DNA of 64,000 bases, taken from positions 11,819 through 75,818 of the forward strand of contig JBJKRB010000207.1 in assembly GCA_046704885.1 (NCBI GenBank), written 5' to 3'. Shown here piece by piece: positions 50,501 through 56,500 of the stretch. Source of the DNA: Thermoanaerobaculia bacterium (GTDB taxonomy: Bacteria; Acidobacteriota; Thermoanaerobaculia; Multivoradales; JBJKRB01). Positions within the stretch are counted from its first letter, which is position 1; each line of letters begins with the position of its first letter. The position numbers are program-made.

Positions 50501-53500
50501 TCCCAACACGAACTTCCGTCTGACCGCCGAGGTCGAGGACGCAACCTACACGGATCCGTACACCTTGAAGTCCCCGACCGATCGTCAGCGTCTGCGCGTG
50601 CGGGCCCGTTACAACCTCAAGAAGGGCCTCTATCTCGCCGGCTCGTACTTGTACAACAAGTTCAAGAACAACGACTCCGGCTGGGACGCGCACTATGACG
50701 AAGCGAACCTGAGGCTGGGGTATCAGAGCAAGGCGATCACCGCGACGGTGGGCTACGGCCGAATCGACATCGGCCGCAGCATCAACCACGACACGTACAT
50801 CGTCGACACCTCGACCTTCCTCTTCTACTTCCCCATTACTTACGACGCCAAGACGGACCTGTATGACGGTTCGATCCGTTGGGCGCTCAACAAGCAGTGG
50901 GCGATCGGAGGGGACCTCAGGTACTACAAGAACAGCGGCAGCTGGGGTCTGATGAGCGACGACTACCAGGGCTACGTGGAGTACACCTTCACGAACGGCT
51001 ACCTGGTCCACGCCGGCTACCGCTACATCAAGTACAACGAGGATCAGTTCAACTACAACGACTACAGCGCCAAGATCGGGGAGTTCTCGATCGGGTATCG
51101 CTGGTAGCGGCAGACTGGACAACCTCCTAGCATGAAGAACTGCGCCGGTCGCGAGACCGGCGCAGTTCTCTTTTCGGGGCCGAGCCGTCGGATTTCCAGA
51201 GCTCGCCCCCGCAACCTGCGACCGCTTCGCCTCGACTTGCCACCCAAAAGGGTAGGCCTTCCCCGTCCGATGGTTCCCGAGCCGCCCACCCGGGCGGGGA
51301 TGGCGAGGGGCGGCCACCCGAAGCAAACTCATTGTCAGTTCCGTAAAGCGGCCGGCGACGGAGCAGGGGAAAGCAAGTCGAGCCTGGGACCGTGCGGCCG
51401 CGGCGAGACCATTGAAGCCACCTTAAAAGGATCGCCTTTGAGCACTGACAAGCCTGACCCAGCAGATCCGCTACGACGCAGAGTGATCAACTGGTTTCTG
51501 GGCGGCTCGGCGTTAGCCCTGTTCGCCTCGATCGCCTATCCGATCGCTCGTTTCGTTAGCCCGCCACGCGTTCCCGAGGCGACGACCGACCAGGTCGACG
51601 CCGGCACGGTGAACGATCCCGCCTTGGTTTCCAACGGCTACAAGATCATTCGTTTCGGCACCGAGCCGGTGATCGTGATTAAGCTGTCGGACGCCGACGT
51701 TCGTGCCTTCTCCGCCACGTGCACTCACCTCGCGTGCATCGTCGAGTACCGCAAGAAGAAGCACGACATCTACTGCAACTGCCACGGTGGCGAATACAAC
51801 TTGAAGGGTAAGAACATCGCCGGACCGCCCCCGAAGCCGCTGACTCCTTTCAAGGTCGACCTGGTCGCCAAGAGCGGCGCCAGCGCGAAGTCGATCATCG
51901 TTTCGAGGGCTTGAGCGATGAAGAAACGCCTCCAAAAGATCTACCACTGGATGGACGAGAGGATCGCCCTGGGTCCGGTGCGCGAGTTCGCGATGCACAA
52001 GACGGTCCCCGTGCACCGCTACTCGGTCTTCTACTACCTGGGTGGAATGACGCTCTTCTTCTTCATCGTCCAGGTATGCACCGGGATCCTCCTGATGCTC
52101 TACTACCGGCCGGCTCCGAACGGCGCTTTCGAGTCGGTCGAGTTCCTGATGACCACCGTTCCCTTTGGCTGGCTCCTGCGCTCGATCCACTCGTGGTCGG
52201 CCAACTTGATGATCTTCTTCGCCTTTGTCCACATGGCGAGCGTCTTCTTTATGAAGGCCTATCGCCGGCCCCGCGAGCTCACTTGGATCACCGGCGCCCT
52301 CGCGCTCTTTCTCGCTCTTGCCTTCGGCTTCTCCGGTTACCTGCTTCCCTGGAATCAGCTCTCATACTTCGCCACGCGAGTGGGAACCGACATCGCGGGC
52401 GTGGTTCCGGGAGTGGGGCACTGGGTCCTTCGCTTCTTGCGGGGCGGCGACCGAATCACCGGTGGAACCCTTTCGCGCTTCTATGGATGGCACGTCGCGA
52501 TTCTGCCCGCGCTCATGACCTTTTTCCTCGGCGTCCACCTTCTCCTCGTCCAAACCCTGGGAATGAGCGTCCCTCCCTCGGTCGAAGAGGAGGCGGCGAA
52601 GCGCCGTCCGATGCGCTTCTTCCCCAACTTCGCCATGCGCGACCTCTTCGGTTGGACCGTTGCGCTCGGCGTTCTCGCTTCGCTCGCGGCATGGTTCCCG
52701 TGGGAGCTCGGCGTCAAGGCAAATCAGTTCGCGCCGGCACCGGCGGGCATCCGCCCCGAGTGGTACTTCATGTTCATGTACCAAAGCCTGAAGCTCGTGC
52801 CCGGCGGCGAGATCGCCGGCATCGAGTATGAAGTGATTCCAATCCTGGGCTTCGGCCTGGCGGCTCTACTCCTCGTCCTCGTCCCCTTCCTCGACCGGGG
52901 AGTAGTCCGCTCAGGCCGTAGCCCCCTATTTACCGCAGTCGGCGCCGTCGCGGTCGCCTATATCGTGGTGCTCACATCCTGGGGCTACCACTCCTGGACG
53001 CCGGTCTACGTCGTCCTGGGAGTCGCAGCCTTGATCGTGCTCCTCGCCTGGGCCACCCGCCGACGCGACTCCGGGGGTGAAGCGTGAGACGCTGTCTCTT
53101 GATCGTTTTCGTTCTCCTCGCGCCGGTTGCGGCGCTCGCCCAGTCATCGCCAGCCCAGAGCTCCACCAAGGTCAGCTCTTGCATCGCCTGTCATAGCAAC
53201 GCCGACATGGTCGGCAAAGAGGACGTGAAGATCGTCACGGGTGTCTCGCACGGCGTGCATGCCGCCGCTGGCCTCTCTTGTCAGGACTGCCATGGCGGCA
53301 ATCCCGACCCGTCGCTCGCCGGCGACATGGACAAGGCGATGGACCCGAAGTTCAAGGCGAATCCGTTCCGCGGCGCTCCCAAGCGCACCGCGATCCCGGC
53401 ATTCTGCGGGCGCTGCCACTCGAACGCGGACTATATGAAGAAGTTCAACCCGGAGCTGCGGGTCGACCAGGAGCAGGAATACTGGACCAGTCAACACGGC

Positions 53501-56500
53501 ATGCTCCTCAAGAAGGGCGACACCAAGGTCGCCACCTGCGTCGACTGCCATGGAGTCCATGGGATTCTGAACCCGAAGGATCCCGAAGCGCCGGTCTACC
53601 CGACCCACGTCGCCGAGACCTGCGCCAAGTGCCACGCGGATCCCAAGCACATGGCGGGCTACAAGCTCCCCGACGGGCGTCCGCTGCCGGTTGACCAGTA
53701 TGCCCTGTGGAAGCAGAGTGTTCATGCGCATGATCTCCTGGTCAACGAGGATCTCTCGGCGCCTACCTGCAACGACTGCCATGGCAACCACGGCGCCACG
53801 CCGCCGGGCCTCGACTCGATAGCCTTCGTCTGTGGTCAGTGCCACGCGCGCGAAGCCGAGCTCTTCCGGGCCAGCAAGAAGAAGCAGCTCTTTGATGAGC
53901 ACAACGGCTATCTCCAGTCGGCCGGCTCACAAGGGTGCGCCTCATGCCACTCGGCTCCTGACCCGGCGGCGAAGATCACCACGATCCACTCGTTCAGCGA
54001 GTGCGTGACCTGCCACGGCAACCACGGCATCATTCGGCCGACGCTGGCCATGCTGGCGCCGCTGCCCCCAACGCCGTGCGCCCTTTGCCACGAACCGCCG
54101 GGCCCGCTCGCTCCTGACGAGGAAGAGCCCGTCTCCAAGGTGGTCGAGTACCATCAATTCCGTGACCGCTTGCTCGCCGAAGCAAAGGCGAAGGGGCTCA
54201 CGGGCGAGGACCGCTTCGACTGGCTCGTCGATCAGGCCCAGCACCTTCCCACCCATACCCAGCCGTTGGCGCACGGAGGTGGGGTCGAGCTCCGGCCGCA
54301 GTTCAAGCGGTTGTTCGACAAGTTCCGCATCGGGAAGACCTACTACACCTACCAGGACCCGGCCACGGGCAAGATGACGCGCAAGGAGATCGTCCGTTGC
54401 AGCCACTGCCACGCGCAAAAGCCGACCCTCACCGACAAGCCGATCGGCTTCGACACGAGCAGCGCGTTCCTCAGTGGCATGCGTCAGCTCACTGGGCTCA
54501 CCGCCCGCGCCGAGCGCATCCTTCTGACCGCGCGCCGCGGTGGGGTCGAGACCCGGCCGGCGCTGGGTGAGATCGACAGCGCTGTAGACTCCCAGGTGCA
54601 ACTCGAGGTCCTCGTTCACACCTTCTCGGACGCGCCCAAGGGCAAGTTCGAGACCACCCAGGCGGAAGGCGTCAAACACGCCAAGGCGGCGCTCGCCGCG
54701 GCCCAGAAAGCTCTCCACGAGCTCTCCTACCGCCGCCGCGGGCTCTATGTCGCGCTCGCCTTCGTGGCCTTGGTGCTGATCGGCCTGGCCCTCAAGATCC
54801 GCCAGATGTCGCGCTAGCACTCCCTGACAGCTGTCGAGGAAGTCCGCGCGTTTCCATAGAGGCCGTGCTCCCCACCGGGAGCGCGGCCTCACTCTTTCTC
54901 CGCCGAGCAACGCTTTGCAGAACGGCGAATCAGGCTCTTCGAAGCAAGAAGTCCAGAGTGGGGGGGAGGCCTTCAGCGAGGGAGCGGGGGTGCCAATCGA
55001 GCTCCTCCCTGGCCCGCTGGTCGTCGAAGTTCCAGTGCCGGCGAAGGTTCTCGAGCTGTTCCCGGTGCACTCGTGGGCGGCGGCCGATGAGCGGCAATAG
55101 GACCTTCGAGGTGTTGAGCAGCGCTCGCGCCACCGGCAATGAGAGATCGGTCCGCGGGGCCGCGACGCCCGTGTGATCCGCTACCTTCTCCGCGACCTGG
55201 CGCACCGTCGCCCCTTCGCCAGTCAACAGGTACCCTCGCCCGGCCGGGGCCCGGTCCAGGATCCGCACCATCGCTTCGACCACATCGTCGAGAAACACCC
55301 ACCGTGTGATTCTTTCGGCGCCAACCAGAAAGCGCAGCCGTCCTCGGCCCAAGGCGCGGAGCAGGGGATTAGCGCCGCCCTTCTTCCCCGGAGGACCATA
55401 AACCAGGCTGGGATAGACCGTATTGAGATCGAGTCCCTGCGCTGCCACGGACTCGATCGCCTTCTGAGCGGCGTTCTTGGTAGCGCTGTAGGCGGTGAGG
55501 AAGGGTTGGCGCGGTGAGCTATCCTCGTTACCGGGCGCACCGTCGTCGGCACTTCCGCCGAAGAAGGCCATCGAGGAGACCGAAAGGAAACGCCTCGCTC
55601 CGACCTCGACAGCGGTCCGGGCCACGTTCTCGCTTCCCACCACGTTGACCGCTCTCATTCTCTCGCGCGGCACGCGGAGGTCGAGCTCAGCCGCCGCGTG
55701 GATCACCGCCTCGCACCCCTTCATTCCGGGCGCAAGAGACCCTGGATCGCCCAGGTCCCCCACGAAGCAAGAAGCGCCCACTTCCTCGAGGTGCCGCCGG
55801 TCGCTCGTCGGCCGCACCAGGCAATGAAGCTCATGCCCTTCGGAGAGCAGGCGCGCGGCAAGGGCCTCACCGAGGTATCCCGTTCCTCCAGTTAGATAGA
55901 TACGCATCACGGCGCCTGCCATAGGCCGGGAATCGCCCGCTGGCAAAAATTGTTATCCAACATAGGACGGGTCATACAGGGAGTTGGGCCCGTCATCGGG
56001 GTCAACAGAGTCAGGGGAGTCAAGAGACTCGAGCGACTCCGGCAATCTCCTTCAGCTCCCTCTCCTCCCCCCGTGCCGTCACCCTCCTCGGCACGGGGCT
56101 TTTTTGTCCTGGCGCCGGGTCGCCCTAGCAGCAAGAACTCTGCGTCATGCGCTCGCCGCGAGCTGGCGCAAGACGTACTGGAGGATTCCTCCGTGGCGAT
56201 AGTAGGCCACCTCCTGCGGCGTGTCGAGGCGCACCCGGGCCTTGAAGCGCAGGCTCGACCCATCCTCACGCTGGGCCTCGACCTCGATCTCCCGGTGCTC
56301 CTCACCCTCCGCAACCAGCGCTTCGGGAAGTCCACGGGTCGAGAAGACCTCGTGGCCGTCGAAACCCAGCTTCTCTGCCGAGTCGCCGGCGAGAAACTCG
56401 AGCGGCACGACCCCCATGCCGATCAGGTTCGAGCGATGGATTCGCTCGTAGCTCTCGGCGATGACAGCTTTGACGCCGAGGAGAGCCGGCCCCTTGGCCG

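What the first reader, a model, noticed from the sequence alone, without database searches (positions are those of the whole stretch)
51438..54817. bc-type complex in which cytochrome c1 is replaced by a membrane-anchored 11-haem cytochrome
Rieske protein (TTG start), a fused-type cytochrome b with the PEWY motif, and a 577-aa cytochrome with 11 CxxCH and a C-terminal TM anchor are translationally coupled, directly downstream of the porin-cytochrome pair. Multihaem bc complexes are characteristic of organisms that wire quinol oxidation to periplasmic or extracellular multihaem networks.
Basis: partly seen in the sequence, partly recalled or inferred. Interest (0 to 1): 0.65.

Follow-up and report, generated by a model that had tools for sequence, protein, structure and literature searches.

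The report
Rieske/cytochrome b complex with 11-haem subunit
Three tightly packed genes encode a quinol-oxidising respiratory complex (Rieske protein and cytochrome b) whose usual one-haem partner is replaced by a membrane-anchored 11-haem "wire"; the design is common in uncultured Acidobacteriota and often sits beside outer-membrane electron conduits, but the general idea is already known from Geobacter, anammox bacteria and Methanoperedens.

Summary
51438-54817 (+) holds a Rieske gene, a fused 8-helix cytochrome b with PEWY, and a 577-aa cytochrome with 11 CxxCH, a signal peptide and a C-terminal membrane helix. The junctions are a 3-nt gap and a 4-nt overlap, and a strong terminator follows.

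The TTG start holds up. It lies 12 codons before the Tat motif, as in homologues. The alternative ATG extension shows 0 synonymous against 15 non-synonymous changes versus a 92%-identical relative.

The trio is a conserved unit: cytochrome b sits directly upstream of the multihaem gene in 76 of 76 related loci, and five independent in-frame cytochrome b-multihaem fusions exist. At least 540 species genomes carry the family, mostly Thermoanaerobaculia and Blastocatellia. There is an 11-haem and a 9-haem form.

The upstream pair is MtrA-like and MtrB-like, but a conserved terminator hairpin separates it from the trio. Only 25 of 80 loci have such a pair within 8 kb.

Multihaem Rieske/cytochrome b complexes are already described (Geobacter Ext/Cbc6, Kuenenia, Methanoperedens). 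This haem subunit matches none of the models or solved structures tested, and I found no description of it. Verdict: a new variant of a known kind, of moderate interest. The direction and destination of electron flow remain inferred.

The parts
51438..51914 (+). Rieske [2Fe-2S] subunit, 158 aa, TTG start, Tat motif RRRVINWF plus N-terminal anchor
   Evidence: PF00355 E = 9.5e-12 and a weak TM_PetC match. Boxes CTHLAC and CNCHGGEY. Best solved relatives are the Chlorobaculum (8hn2) and Kuenenia (9rk4) Rieske proteins. Start supported.
51918..53087 (+). Fused cytochrome b, 389 aa, 8 predicted helices, PEWY Qo motif, b6-type 14-residue His spacing in helix D, Tyr in place of the haem-ci Cys
   Evidence: PF00033 and PF00032. 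NCBIfam cytochrome b6 223 bits and ExtP 209 bits, both below cut-off. PDB: b6 1q90_B 3.6e-57; full-length matches 6kls_B and 8smr_I. Motifs and helices.
53084..54817 (+). 11-haem c-type cytochrome, 577 aa: signal peptide, haem-rich domain (residues 30-340, hemes 1-10), helical/small beta mid-domain with haem 11 (C439), three long C-terminal helices of which the last is the membrane anchor (554-572)
   Evidence: 11 CxxCH. AF2 model with pLDDT 85 and pTM 0.79. Invariant ligands listed. No PDB relative by sequence or Foldseek.
54859..54890 (+). Intrinsic-terminator-like hairpin closing the three-gene unit
   Evidence: 14-bp stem with 11 G-C pairs and a T-rich tail. Fold z-score -4.5.
51137..51175 (+). 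Terminator-like hairpin (14-bp stem, GCGA loop, TCTTTTC tail) between the MtrB-like gene and the Rieske gene
   Evidence: Fold z-score -3.9. The stem is conserved in L081 while the loop and flanks diverge, with indels downstream.
48285..49202 (+). Context: MtrA/DmsE-family decahaem cytochrome, 305 aa, 10 CxxCH
   Evidence: TIGR03508 193.8 bits against a cut-off of 192.2. Matches 6r2q_A at E = 2e-27 over the full length. Haem count.
49215..51107 (+). Context: MtrB-like outer-membrane beta-barrel, 630 aa
   Evidence: AF2 model with pLDDT 83.6. Best PDB match is MtrB 6r2q_B, E = 4e-16, TM 0.62-0.64. Some homologues carry PF11854 MtrB_PioB.
47579..47983 (-). Context: monohaem class I cytochrome c, 134 aa, candidate periplasmic partner
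   Evidence: PF00034. One CxxCH. It recurs next to the trio in L002-L004, L013, L082 and L084.
45471..47435 (-). Context: 11-haem c domain fused to a dihaem-b-type (FdnI / Ni_hydr_CYTB-like) membrane domain, 654 aa (CbcL-like architecture)
   Evidence: Pfam and NCBIfam matches. 11 CxxCH. Present in 18 of 80 related loci.
42412..43926 (+). Context: NapC/NirT/NrfH-like membrane multihaem cytochrome, 504 aa, three N-terminal hydrophobic segments, 6 CxxCH plus CGKTCH (ImcH-like architecture)
   Evidence: PF03264. NrfH and TorC models below cut-off. Sequence.

Best explanation
The three genes encode a Rieske/cytochrome b quinol oxidase of the bc1/b6f superfamily. In it, a C-terminally anchored multihaem cytochrome takes the structural place of cytochrome c1 or f.

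Proposed mechanism:
- Quinol, probably menaquinol, is oxidised at the PEWY Qo site.
- One electron goes through haems bL and bH to the Qi site (Q cycle, proton-motive).
- The other electron goes to the Tat-exported Rieske cluster.
- From there it enters an 11-haem chain that projects into the periplasm.
- All 11 haems appear six-coordinate, so the protein is a wire, not an enzyme. Two of them are probably His/Met-ligated and of higher potential.
- The chain hands electrons to periplasmic or outer-membrane cytochromes.

In this window the most likely recipients are the adjacent MtrA-like/MtrB-like conduit and the monohaem cytochrome c. That would give an energy-conserving route from the quinol pool to extracellular acceptors such as Fe(III), Mn(IV) or humics. 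It would run alongside the ImcH-like and CbcL-like quinol oxidases encoded in the same 12-kb cytochrome island.

Shown here: gene content, motifs, topology, conservation, fusions and synteny. Inferred: assembly into one complex, the Q cycle, the quinone species, the haem ligation, and the direction and destination of electron flow.
For: - Domain and motif identity of the Rieske protein and cytochrome b.
- Canonical gene order with a 3-nt gap and a 4-nt overlap, and a terminator after the third gene.
- Cytochrome b lies directly upstream of the multihaem gene in 76 of 76 loci, and Rieske upstream of that in 71 of 73. The loci span Acidobacteriota and MAGs labelled Binatia, Methylomirabilota, Planctomycetota, Polyangiaceae and others.
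- In-frame cytochrome b-multihaem fusions occur in L023, L031, L037, L042 and P0036. In them the signal peptide becomes a ninth helix. This fits the 8-helix cytochrome b, whose C-terminus is cytoplasmic.
- The C-terminal anchor RRRGL...LKIRQ is conserved, as in c1 and f.
- Invariant axial-ligand candidates equal the haem number in both subfamilies. The 11-haem form has 9 His plus M118 and M190. The 9-haem form has 7 His plus the same 2 Met.
- The neighbours are MtrA-like and MtrB-like.
- The same module set recurs, rearranged, in L082: trio, monohaem c, CbcL-like, NapC/NirT-like and MtrAB-like. A porin-cytochrome trio lies next to the complex in L083.
- All five c-type cytochrome genes of the 64-kb window lie between 42.4 and 54.8 kb.
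Against: - No biochemical data exist. No multimer model could be run, so the Rieske-to-haem distance is unknown.
- A conserved terminator-like hairpin separates the MtrAB-like genes from the trio, so co-expression is not implied.
- Only 25 of 80 related loci have an MtrA-like decahaem within 8 kb, and only 14 of 61 have the tight arrangement. The trio is therefore not dedicated to that conduit.
- No MtrC-like surface cytochrome is in the window. From my own knowledge, that arrangement is typical of the Fe(II)-oxidising MtoAB and PioAB systems.
- From my own knowledge, a Rieske centre near +100 to +200 mV is a poor donor to low-potential bis-His haems and to poorly oxidising Fe(III) minerals.
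- The 9-haem form is very abundant in Pyrinomonadaceae metagenomes. I recall cultured members of that family being aerobes.
Confidence: 0.6

Rival explanations
1. General-purpose complex III. The trio is the organism's ordinary quinol:cytochrome c oxidoreductase. The multihaem subunit distributes electrons, for example through the monohaem cytochrome c, to periplasmic terminal enzymes such as oxidases and nitrogen-oxide reductases. The MtrAB-like neighbour is only one of several outputs, or is incidental.
For: - The trio is conserved on its own in most loci. An MtrA-like gene is within 8 kb in only 25 of 80.
- A terminator lies between the two units.
- A monohaem class I cytochrome c recurs beside the trio.
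- The 9-haem form is very abundant in Pyrinomonadaceae soil metagenomes.
- The phylogenetic spread is wide.
Against: - Cytochrome-rich, conduit-type neighbours recur in independent arrangements.
- The window's island also holds ImcH-like and CbcL-like genes.
- An 11-haem wire is more than is needed to reach a soluble monohaem carrier.
- No terminal oxidase or reductase gene was seen among the genes scanned.
Confidence: 0.25
2. Inward electron flow. Electrons from extracellular Fe(II), reduced humics or minerals enter through the MtrAB-like conduit (MtoAB/PioAB style, with no MtrC). They reach the multihaem subunit and are then pushed uphill through a reversed, pmf-driven Q cycle to reduce the quinone pool. 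A second branch runs downhill to an oxidase through the monohaem c.
For: - No MtrC-like outer cytochrome is in the window.
- The monohaem c next to the MtrA-like gene recalls MtoD in the Sideroxydans mtoAB-mtoD-cymA cluster (table quoted).
- Reverse operation of bc complexes is documented for the Acidithiobacillus pet operon. It has been proposed for a Geobacter metallireducens bc complex (Kao and Hunte).
Against: - ImcH-like and CbcL-like genes in the same island are, from my own knowledge, quinol oxidases of metal reducers.
- The scanned parts of the window show heterotrophic core metabolism only: citrate synthase, glutamate dehydrogenase and aconitase. No carbon-fixation gene was seen.
- I recall Thermoanaerobaculum as a fermenter and Fe/Mn reducer, not an iron oxidiser.
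Confidence: 0.1
3. The multihaem protein is not a subunit. It is an independent membrane-tethered periplasmic cytochrome that merely shares an operon with a two-subunit Rieske/cytochrome b core, as I recall for the green-sulfur-bacterial complex.
For: The closest solved relatives of the Rieske protein and, at full length, of cytochrome b include Chlorobaculum proteins. From my own knowledge, that complex lacks a bound c1.
Against: - Adjacency holds in 76 of 76 loci with overlapping start and stop codons.
- There are five natural in-frame fusions to cytochrome b.
- A C-terminal anchor is conserved, as in c1 and f.
Confidence: 0.05

Closest known systems
Geobacter extHIJKLMNOPQS / Cbc6 cluster (GSU2930-2940)
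   Same: A Rieske protein (ExtO) and a b6-like cytochrome b (ExtP) are encoded with multihaem cytochromes instead of c1, next to an outer-membrane porin-like gene (ExtI). It has been proposed as a quinol-oxidation site for extracellular respiration (PMC2825233; PMC5877670). The window's cytochrome b scores 209 bits on the ExtP model.
   Different: - In Geobacter the cytochrome b is split (ExtP plus ExtQ). Four separate cytochromes of 4, 5, 10 and 12 haems are present, along with a rhodanese, and the porin resembles phosphate-selective porins.
- Here the cytochrome b is fused with 8 helices, a single C-terminally anchored 11-haem subunit is present, and the neighbours are MtrA/MtrB-type.
- The ExtP score is below the 290-bit cut-off. 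The multihaem protein gave no match to the ExtM model at E <= 0.001.
Anammox (Kuenenia) Rieske/cytochrome b complexes Kuste4569-4574 and Kustd1480-1485
   Same: These are b6f-related cores in which cytochrome f is replaced by a membrane-anchored hexa- or octahaem cytochrome c (PMC12954380). A Kuenenia Rieske protein (9rk4) is the second-best solved match to this Rieske protein.
   Different: The anammox complexes have a split b6 plus subunit IV and an NAD(P) oxidoreductase subunit. One also has an HAO-like octahaem enzyme. None of these is present here.
Methanoperedens Rieske/cytochrome b cluster
   Same: It is a non-canonical Rieske/cytochrome b gene cluster with extra multihaem (two pentahaem) cytochromes, proposed to carry electrons outward (PMC4683180).
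   Different: It is archaeal. It keeps a c1/f-type cytochrome in addition to the pentahaems and has a different gene set.
Canonical cytochrome bc1 (petABC / fbcFBC) and b6f
   Same: - Gene order Rieske, cytochrome b, then a C-terminally anchored c-type cytochrome.
- Four haem-b His ligands, PEWY and a Tat-type Rieske protein.
- His spacing in helix D is as in b6.
   Different: - There is no monohaem c1 or cytochrome f.
- Cytochrome b is fused with 8 helices, unlike b6f.
- There is no haem-ci Cys, unlike b6f and the Firmicutes complexes.
- Rieske box II has Gly or Asn where, as I recall, high-potential Rieske proteins have Ser.
MtrAB / MtoAB / PioAB porin-cytochrome conduits (context genes)
   Same: The decahaem reaches the DmsE/MtrA family cut-off and aligns over its full length to MtrA of 6r2q. 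The model of the barrel matches MtrB best.
   Different: No MtrC-type surface cytochrome is present. The barrel is not detectable as MtrB by sequence. The inner-membrane partner would be a Rieske/cytochrome b complex rather than CymA.

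Membership tests
Rieske/cytochrome b complexes (bc1/b6f superfamily) | Rieske protein with the two cluster-binding boxes CxHxxC and CxCH, including the disulfide cysteines | tested here: met
   CTHLAC and CNCHGG are present. PF00355 E = 9.5e-12. The boxes are conserved across related loci.
Rieske/cytochrome b complexes (bc1/b6f superfamily) | Cytochrome b with two His pairs on helices B and D, and a PEWY-type Qo motif | tested here: met
   H91/H105 and H192/H207. PEWY at 280-283, also present in 77 of 80 homologues. PF00033 and PF00032.
Rieske/cytochrome b complexes (bc1/b6f superfamily) | Tat-type signal and N-terminal membrane anchor on the Rieske protein | tested here: met
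   RRRVINWF followed by a hydrophobic stretch. The RRxFLNWFLG motif is conserved. TM_PetC is weak here but gives confident hits in the homologues of L082.
Rieske/cytochrome b complexes (bc1/b6f superfamily) | Quinol:cytochrome c oxidoreductase activity with a Q cycle | not testable with these tools
   Needs biochemistry.
Canonical cytochrome bc1 | Monohaem cytochrome c1 subunit | tested here: not met
   The third gene has 11 CxxCH. Its Pfam matches are c7, c3 and paired-CXXCH families only, with no c1 family.
Cytochrome b6f | Split b6 plus subunit IV, a Cys ligand for haem ci, and cytochrome f | tested here: not met
   A single 389-aa cytochrome b with 8 helices. Tyr stands at the ci-Cys position (FYYLGG), as in all homologues. 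There is no cytochrome f. Only the 14-residue His spacing is b6-like.
Geobacter Ext/Cbc6 complex | ExtP-type cytochrome b and ExtM/ExtN-type multihaem cytochromes | tested here: not met
   ExtP model 208.8 bits against a cut-off of 290. The 577-aa protein gave no ExtM match at E <= 0.001. I could not compare directly with the Geobacter sequences.
Anammox-type Rieske/cytochrome b complexes | Associated NAD(P) oxidoreductase subunit and/or HAO-like octahaem enzyme | tested here: not met
   The unit has three genes only, closed by a terminator. The number of candidate axial ligands equals the number of haems, so no open catalytic haem is expected.
MtrA/DmsE decahaem family (neighbour gene) | Ten CxxCH and a family-model score above the cut-off | tested here: met
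   10 CxxCH. TIGR03508 193.8 against 192.2. 6r2q_A E = 2e-27.
MtrB/PioB porins (neighbour gene) | Large beta-barrel of the MtrB fold encoded next to the decahaem | tested here: met
   The AF2 model matches MtrB 6r2q_B best, E = 4e-16, TM 0.62-0.64. The sequence-level match is absent for this protein but present in homologues.

The most novel reading that the evidence does not exclude
The 9/11-haem subunit, standing on a proton-motive Rieske/cytochrome b core, may reach the periplasmic end of the MtrA-like decahaem directly. The result would be a continuous, hard-wired haem chain from the Qo site to the cell surface. That would be an energy-conserving (Q-cycle-coupled) extracellular electron-transfer pathway. 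It would differ from the CymA, ImcH and CbcL routes, and it would be widespread in abundant soil and sediment Acidobacteriota (Thermoanaerobaculia, Blastocatellia) and several other phyla.
Probability: 0.25. Interest if true: 0.75.

Novelty: new variant of a known kind. Interest (0 to 1): 0.5.

Why it matters
Acidobacteriota are among the most abundant soil and sediment bacteria, yet their respiratory chains are mostly inferred from annotation.

- Reach. At least 540 species-level genomes carry this trio. The haem subunit has 416 representative clusters at 50% identity with E <= 1e-30.
- Annotation gap. NCBI names the haem subunit only 'cytochrome c3 family protein'.
- Energetics. If the complex feeds outer-membrane conduits, these organisms could gain Q-cycle proton translocation from metal or humic respiration. 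That would change estimates of who drives iron and manganese cycling and how much energy they obtain.
- Bioenergetics. The family is a natural test of how a Rieske centre can be coupled to a long, partly low-potential haem chain.
- Tractability. The 9-haem and 11-haem forms and the natural cytochrome b fusions give ready-made constructs for structural work.

Tried and rejected
- Solved relatives of the 11-haem protein. The sequence search of the PDB gave nothing below E = 0.17. Foldseek of a good model gave nothing below E = 0.37, only vague resemblance to octahaem nitrite reductase and HAO at TM 0.13-0.34. I do not claim that relationship.
- An exact look-up of the window's cytochrome b among gene positions failed. 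The close relative L081 was used instead.
- Rfam found nothing in 47400-55400.
- The highly conserved leader at 51337-51410 does not fold better than shuffles. It is conserved only in the close relative. I dropped it as a candidate RNA element.
- The sigma-70 scan found no promoter in the 330-nt gap. I treat this as uninformative for this phylum.
- The longer ATG-initiated Rieske forms (204 and 260 aa) were rejected. The extension shows 0 synonymous against 15 non-synonymous changes, and indels lie further upstream.
- A catalytic role for the multihaem protein was rejected because candidate axial ligands equal the haem number.
- Eight literature searches found no description of this Acidobacteriota family. 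The library lacks most subscription papers, for example ten Brink et al. 2013.
- A search with the 9-haem form returned only unnamed metagenome proteins.

Full report
**What is there**

The region 51438-54817 (+) holds three genes.

The first gene, 51438-51914, encodes a 158-aa Rieske protein.
- It matches PF00355 at E = 9.5e-12.
- It has the boxes CTHLAC and CNCHGGEY and a twin-arginine motif RRRVINWF before a hydrophobic stretch.

The second gene, 51918-53087, encodes a 389-aa cytochrome b.
- It carries both the N-terminal and C-terminal Pfam domains (1e-46 and 1.6e-12).
- PEWY lies at 280-283. The His pairs are H91/H105 (13 residues between) and H192/H207 (14 between, the b6 spacing).
- Eight hydrophobic segments are predicted.
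- The position of the haem-ci cysteine of b6 is a tyrosine (FYYLGG), as in all homologues.

The third gene, 53084-54817, encodes a 577-aa protein.
- It has exactly 11 CxxCH.
- It has an N-terminal signal peptide and a C-terminal hydrophobic helix at 554-572.

The junctions are TGA-GCG-ATG, and a GTG start overlapping the TGA stop by 4 nt. A 14-bp G+C-rich hairpin with a T-rich tail follows at 54859-54890. No other Rieske or cytochrome b gene is in the window.

**The TTG start**

The ORF is open back to 51132, and an automatic caller chose an ATG form of 204 aa in the close relative L081. Three observations favour the TTG at 51438.
- An AAGGA lies 6 nt upstream.
- In 80 related loci the start lies roughly 6-25 codons before the RRxFLNWFLG motif. 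Several loci offer only GTG or TTG there. The TTG here is 12 codons before the motif.
- Between the window and L081, the 46 codons from ATG-51300 to the TTG differ at 15 codons, all non-synonymous. The 159 codons (stop codon included) from the TTG differ at 37 codons, 27 of them synonymous (Fisher p = 7e-7).

Further upstream the two sequences differ by large indels.

**Is the multihaem protein part of the complex?**

I searched one genome per species and found at least 540 genomes encoding a relative; the best 80 loci were kept.
- Cytochrome b lies directly upstream in 76 of 76 loci with enough sequence. A Rieske gene lies upstream of that in 71 of 73.
- Four loci (L023, L031, L037, L042) and one metagenome protein (P0036) have cytochrome b and the multihaem protein in one reading frame. 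The former signal peptide then becomes a ninth helix. This fits an 8-helix cytochrome b whose basic C-terminus is cytoplasmic.
- The C-terminal anchor is conserved. From my own knowledge this is the topology of cytochromes c1 and f.

I take this as good genomic evidence for a three-subunit complex. Physical assembly remains inferred.

**The haem subunit**

A 58-sequence alignment gave an AlphaFold2 model with mean pLDDT 85 and pTM 0.79. The model has four parts:
- a haem-rich, mostly loop and short-helix region (about residues 30-340, haems 1-10);
- a helical and small beta mid-domain;
- haem 11 at C439;
- three long helices, the last of which is the anchor.

The protein has no relative in the PDB by sequence or by Foldseek (best E = 0.37). 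It reaches no NCBIfam family cut-off and gave no match to the Geobacter ExtM model.

There are two subfamilies.
- The 11-haem form is about 575 aa and occurs mainly in Thermoanaerobaculia.
- The 9-haem form is about 430-470 aa. It occurs in Blastocatellia/Pyrinomonadaceae and in MAGs labelled Cytophagia, KSB1, Aminicenantes and Calditrichaceae.
- The short form lacks haem 8, one of haems 10 or 11, and the mid-domain.

Residues conserved in both forms are His 59, 138, 159, 214, 236, 314 and 512, plus Met 118 and Met 190. The long form adds invariant His 273 and His 391. Candidate distal ligands therefore number 9 for 9 haems and 11 for 11 haems. I infer that every haem is six-coordinate, so the protein is an electron wire and not an enzyme. 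I also infer that two haems are His/Met-ligated, which usually means a higher potential. Which haem faces the Rieske protein could not be determined, because no coordinates or multimer model were available.

**Type of core**

The core is closest to the 'green' b6f-like side.
- The best solved matches of the N-terminal half of cytochrome b are cytochromes b6 (1q90_B, 3.6e-57). The best full-length matches are Aquifex (6kls_B) and Chlorobaculum (8smr_I).
- The best solved matches of the Rieske protein are from Chlorobaculum (8hn2) and Kuenenia (9rk4).
- Kao and Hunte describe a PEWY clade joining Chlorobi, NC10 and Acidobacteria (PMC4122944). This protein plausibly belongs there, but I did not build the tree.

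Rieske box II reads C[N/A]CH[N/G]G.[Y/F] across the family. It lacks the Ser that I recall raising the potential in high-potential Rieske proteins. This suggests a low-to-middle potential centre suited to menaquinol (inference).

**Surroundings**

All five c-type cytochrome genes of the 64-kb window lie between 42.4 and 54.8 kb.
- 42412-43926 (+): a NapC/NirT/NrfH-like membrane cytochrome of 504 aa with three N-terminal hydrophobic segments, 6 CxxCH and a CGKTCH. From memory this is an ImcH-like architecture.
- 43988-45145 (-): a NapH-like membrane polyferredoxin, not itself a cytochrome.
- 45471-47435 (-): an 11-haem domain fused to a FdnI / Ni_hydr_CYTB-like b-type domain. This is a CbcL-like architecture.
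- 47579-47983 (-): a monohaem class I cytochrome c.
- 48285-49202 (+): a decahaem that reaches the DmsE/MtrA family cut-off (193.8 against 192.2) and aligns over its full length to MtrA of 6r2q (2e-27).
- 49215-51107 (+): a 630-aa barrel. Its model (pLDDT 83.6) matches MtrB 6r2q_B best (E = 4e-16, TM 0.62-0.64).

The pair and the trio are probably separate transcription units. A 14-bp hairpin with a T-tract sits at 51137-51175 (z = -3.9). Its stem is conserved in L081 while the loop and the following sequence diverge.

**How tight is the link to outer-membrane conduits?**

- An MtrA-like decahaem is within 8 kb in 25 of 80 loci.
- The tight order MtrA-like, barrel, Rieske, cytochrome b, multihaem occurs in 14 of 61 loci with enough upstream sequence. 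Most of these belong to the 9-haem Blastocatellia group.
- A 3-Mb contig (L082) has the same modules in a different order: trio, monohaem c, CbcL-like, NapC/NirT-like and MtrA/MtrB_PioB.
- L083 has a porin-cytochrome trio beside the complex.
- L084 shows only the monohaem c near it.

The association is recurrent but not obligatory. The conserved unit is the trio.

**Mechanism**

The best-supported reading is a Q-cycle quinol oxidase whose high-potential branch runs from Qo to the Rieske centre, then along the 11-haem chain to periplasmic or outer-membrane cytochromes. In this organism the nearest candidates are the MtrAB-like conduit and the monohaem c. The complex would then be an energy-conserving outlet to extracellular acceptors beside two other putative quinol oxidases.

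Three rivals remain.
- It is a general complex III that serves periplasmic terminal enzymes.
- It runs inward and in reverse, as in Fe(II) oxidisers. This is favoured by the absence of an MtrC-type protein.
- The multihaem protein is only a co-transcribed cytochrome. The fusions make this unlikely.

I put 0.6 on the main reading overall: about 0.85 on the composition of the complex and about 0.45 on the outward extracellular role.

**Comparison with what is known**

Multihaem cytochromes in place of c1 or f are documented in three systems.
- Geobacter: the conserved GSU2930-2937 cluster has a Rieske protein, cytochrome b and cytochromes of 2 (or 4), 5, 10 and 12 haems. It lies next to the porin-like ExtI (PMC2825233; PMC5877670). 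The same paper cites tetrahaem subunits in other Deltaproteobacteria.
- Kuenenia: hexa- or octahaem subunits (PMC12954380).
- Methanoperedens: two pentahaems (PMC4683180).

The present system differs in four ways.
- It has a single C-terminally anchored 9/11-haem subunit with no match among the models and solved structures tested.
- Its cytochrome b is fused, has 8 helices and b6-type spacing, and lacks the ci cysteine.
- It has no NAD(P)- or HAO-type subunit.
- Its neighbours are MtrA/MtrB-type.

Flieder et al. noted multihaem and beta-barrel clusters in marine Thermoanaerobaculia, but their text does not mention a Rieske or cytochrome b component (PMC8528874). Eight full-text searches found no description of this family. 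The library is incomplete, so this is absence of evidence only.

**Origin and abundance**

- The exact proteins occur on an 81.8-kb NCBI contig. The near-identical cluster mates are labelled Thermoanaerobaculia and named 'cytochrome c3 family protein' and 'cytochrome bc complex cytochrome b subunit'.
- The family has 416 representative clusters at 50% identity with E <= 1e-30.
- Word-based searches saturate at thousands of hits for both the 11-haem and the 9-haem forms.

**Verdict**

The finding is a new variant of a known kind. It is of moderate interest because of its wide distribution in abundant, poorly studied bacteria and its possible role in proton-motive extracellular respiration. The general concept is not new, and the function is untested.

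Noticed in passing
window 42412-43926 (+): A 504-aa membrane cytochrome with three N-terminal hydrophobic segments, a NapC/NirT/NrfH-like region, 6 CxxCH and a CGKTCH motif. From memory this resembles the architecture of Geobacter ImcH. A homologue sits in the same module set in L082.
   Followed up: partly
window 45471-47435 (-) and 43988-45145 (-): The first gene fuses an 11-haem c domain to a FdnI / Ni_hydr_CYTB-like b-type membrane domain (CbcL-like). The second, next to it, is a NapH-like membrane polyferredoxin. The window therefore holds three further candidate quinol:periplasm oxidoreductases besides the Rieske/cytochrome b unit.
   Followed up: partly
L001, L005, L020, L022 (about 1-4 kb downstream of the trio): Very large CbcL-like fusions of about 880-1010 aa with 20-21 CxxCH lie downstream of the Rieske/cytochrome b/multihaem trio in several Thermoanaerobaculia MAGs.
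   Followed up: no
L023, L031, L037, L042 and protein P0036: These carry natural in-frame fusions of cytochrome b to the multihaem cytochrome, 888-974 aa long. The former signal peptide serves as a ninth transmembrane helix.
   Followed up: yes
L076, 2960-5700 (-) and 6436-9557 (+): Two divergently oriented copies of the Rieske/cytochrome b/9-haem trio lie side by side in a Binatia MAG. The second copy is only 30-37% identical to the window proteins.
   Followed up: no
window 51337-51410 (+): This leader stretch upstream of the Rieske start has only 3 mismatches in about 75 nt against L081, so it is more conserved than the flanking sequence. It shows no coding signature, does not fold better than shuffles, has no Rfam match, and is not found in more distant loci.
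   Followed up: partly
window 25562-26836 (-): An FTR1-type iron permease is fused to an FtrD-like membrane iron-sulfur domain. This is an iron-uptake gene, about 16 kb upstream of the cytochrome island.
   Followed up: no
window 40440-42293 (+): A B12-binding radical SAM protein of family TIGR04190 (612 bits, above the cut-off) lies immediately upstream of the cytochrome island. Its function is unknown.
   Followed up: no
window 38442-40247 (-): A 601-aa ORF has no Pfam or NCBIfam match. It may be a spurious high-GC ORF or an unknown protein.
   Followed up: no
L083 12486-16029 (-): A different conduit type sits next to the trio: a multihaem cytochrome (325 aa), a 519-aa protein without domains (a possible barrel) and a second multihaem cytochrome (319 aa). 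This resembles a Pcc-type porin-cytochrome trio.
   Followed up: no
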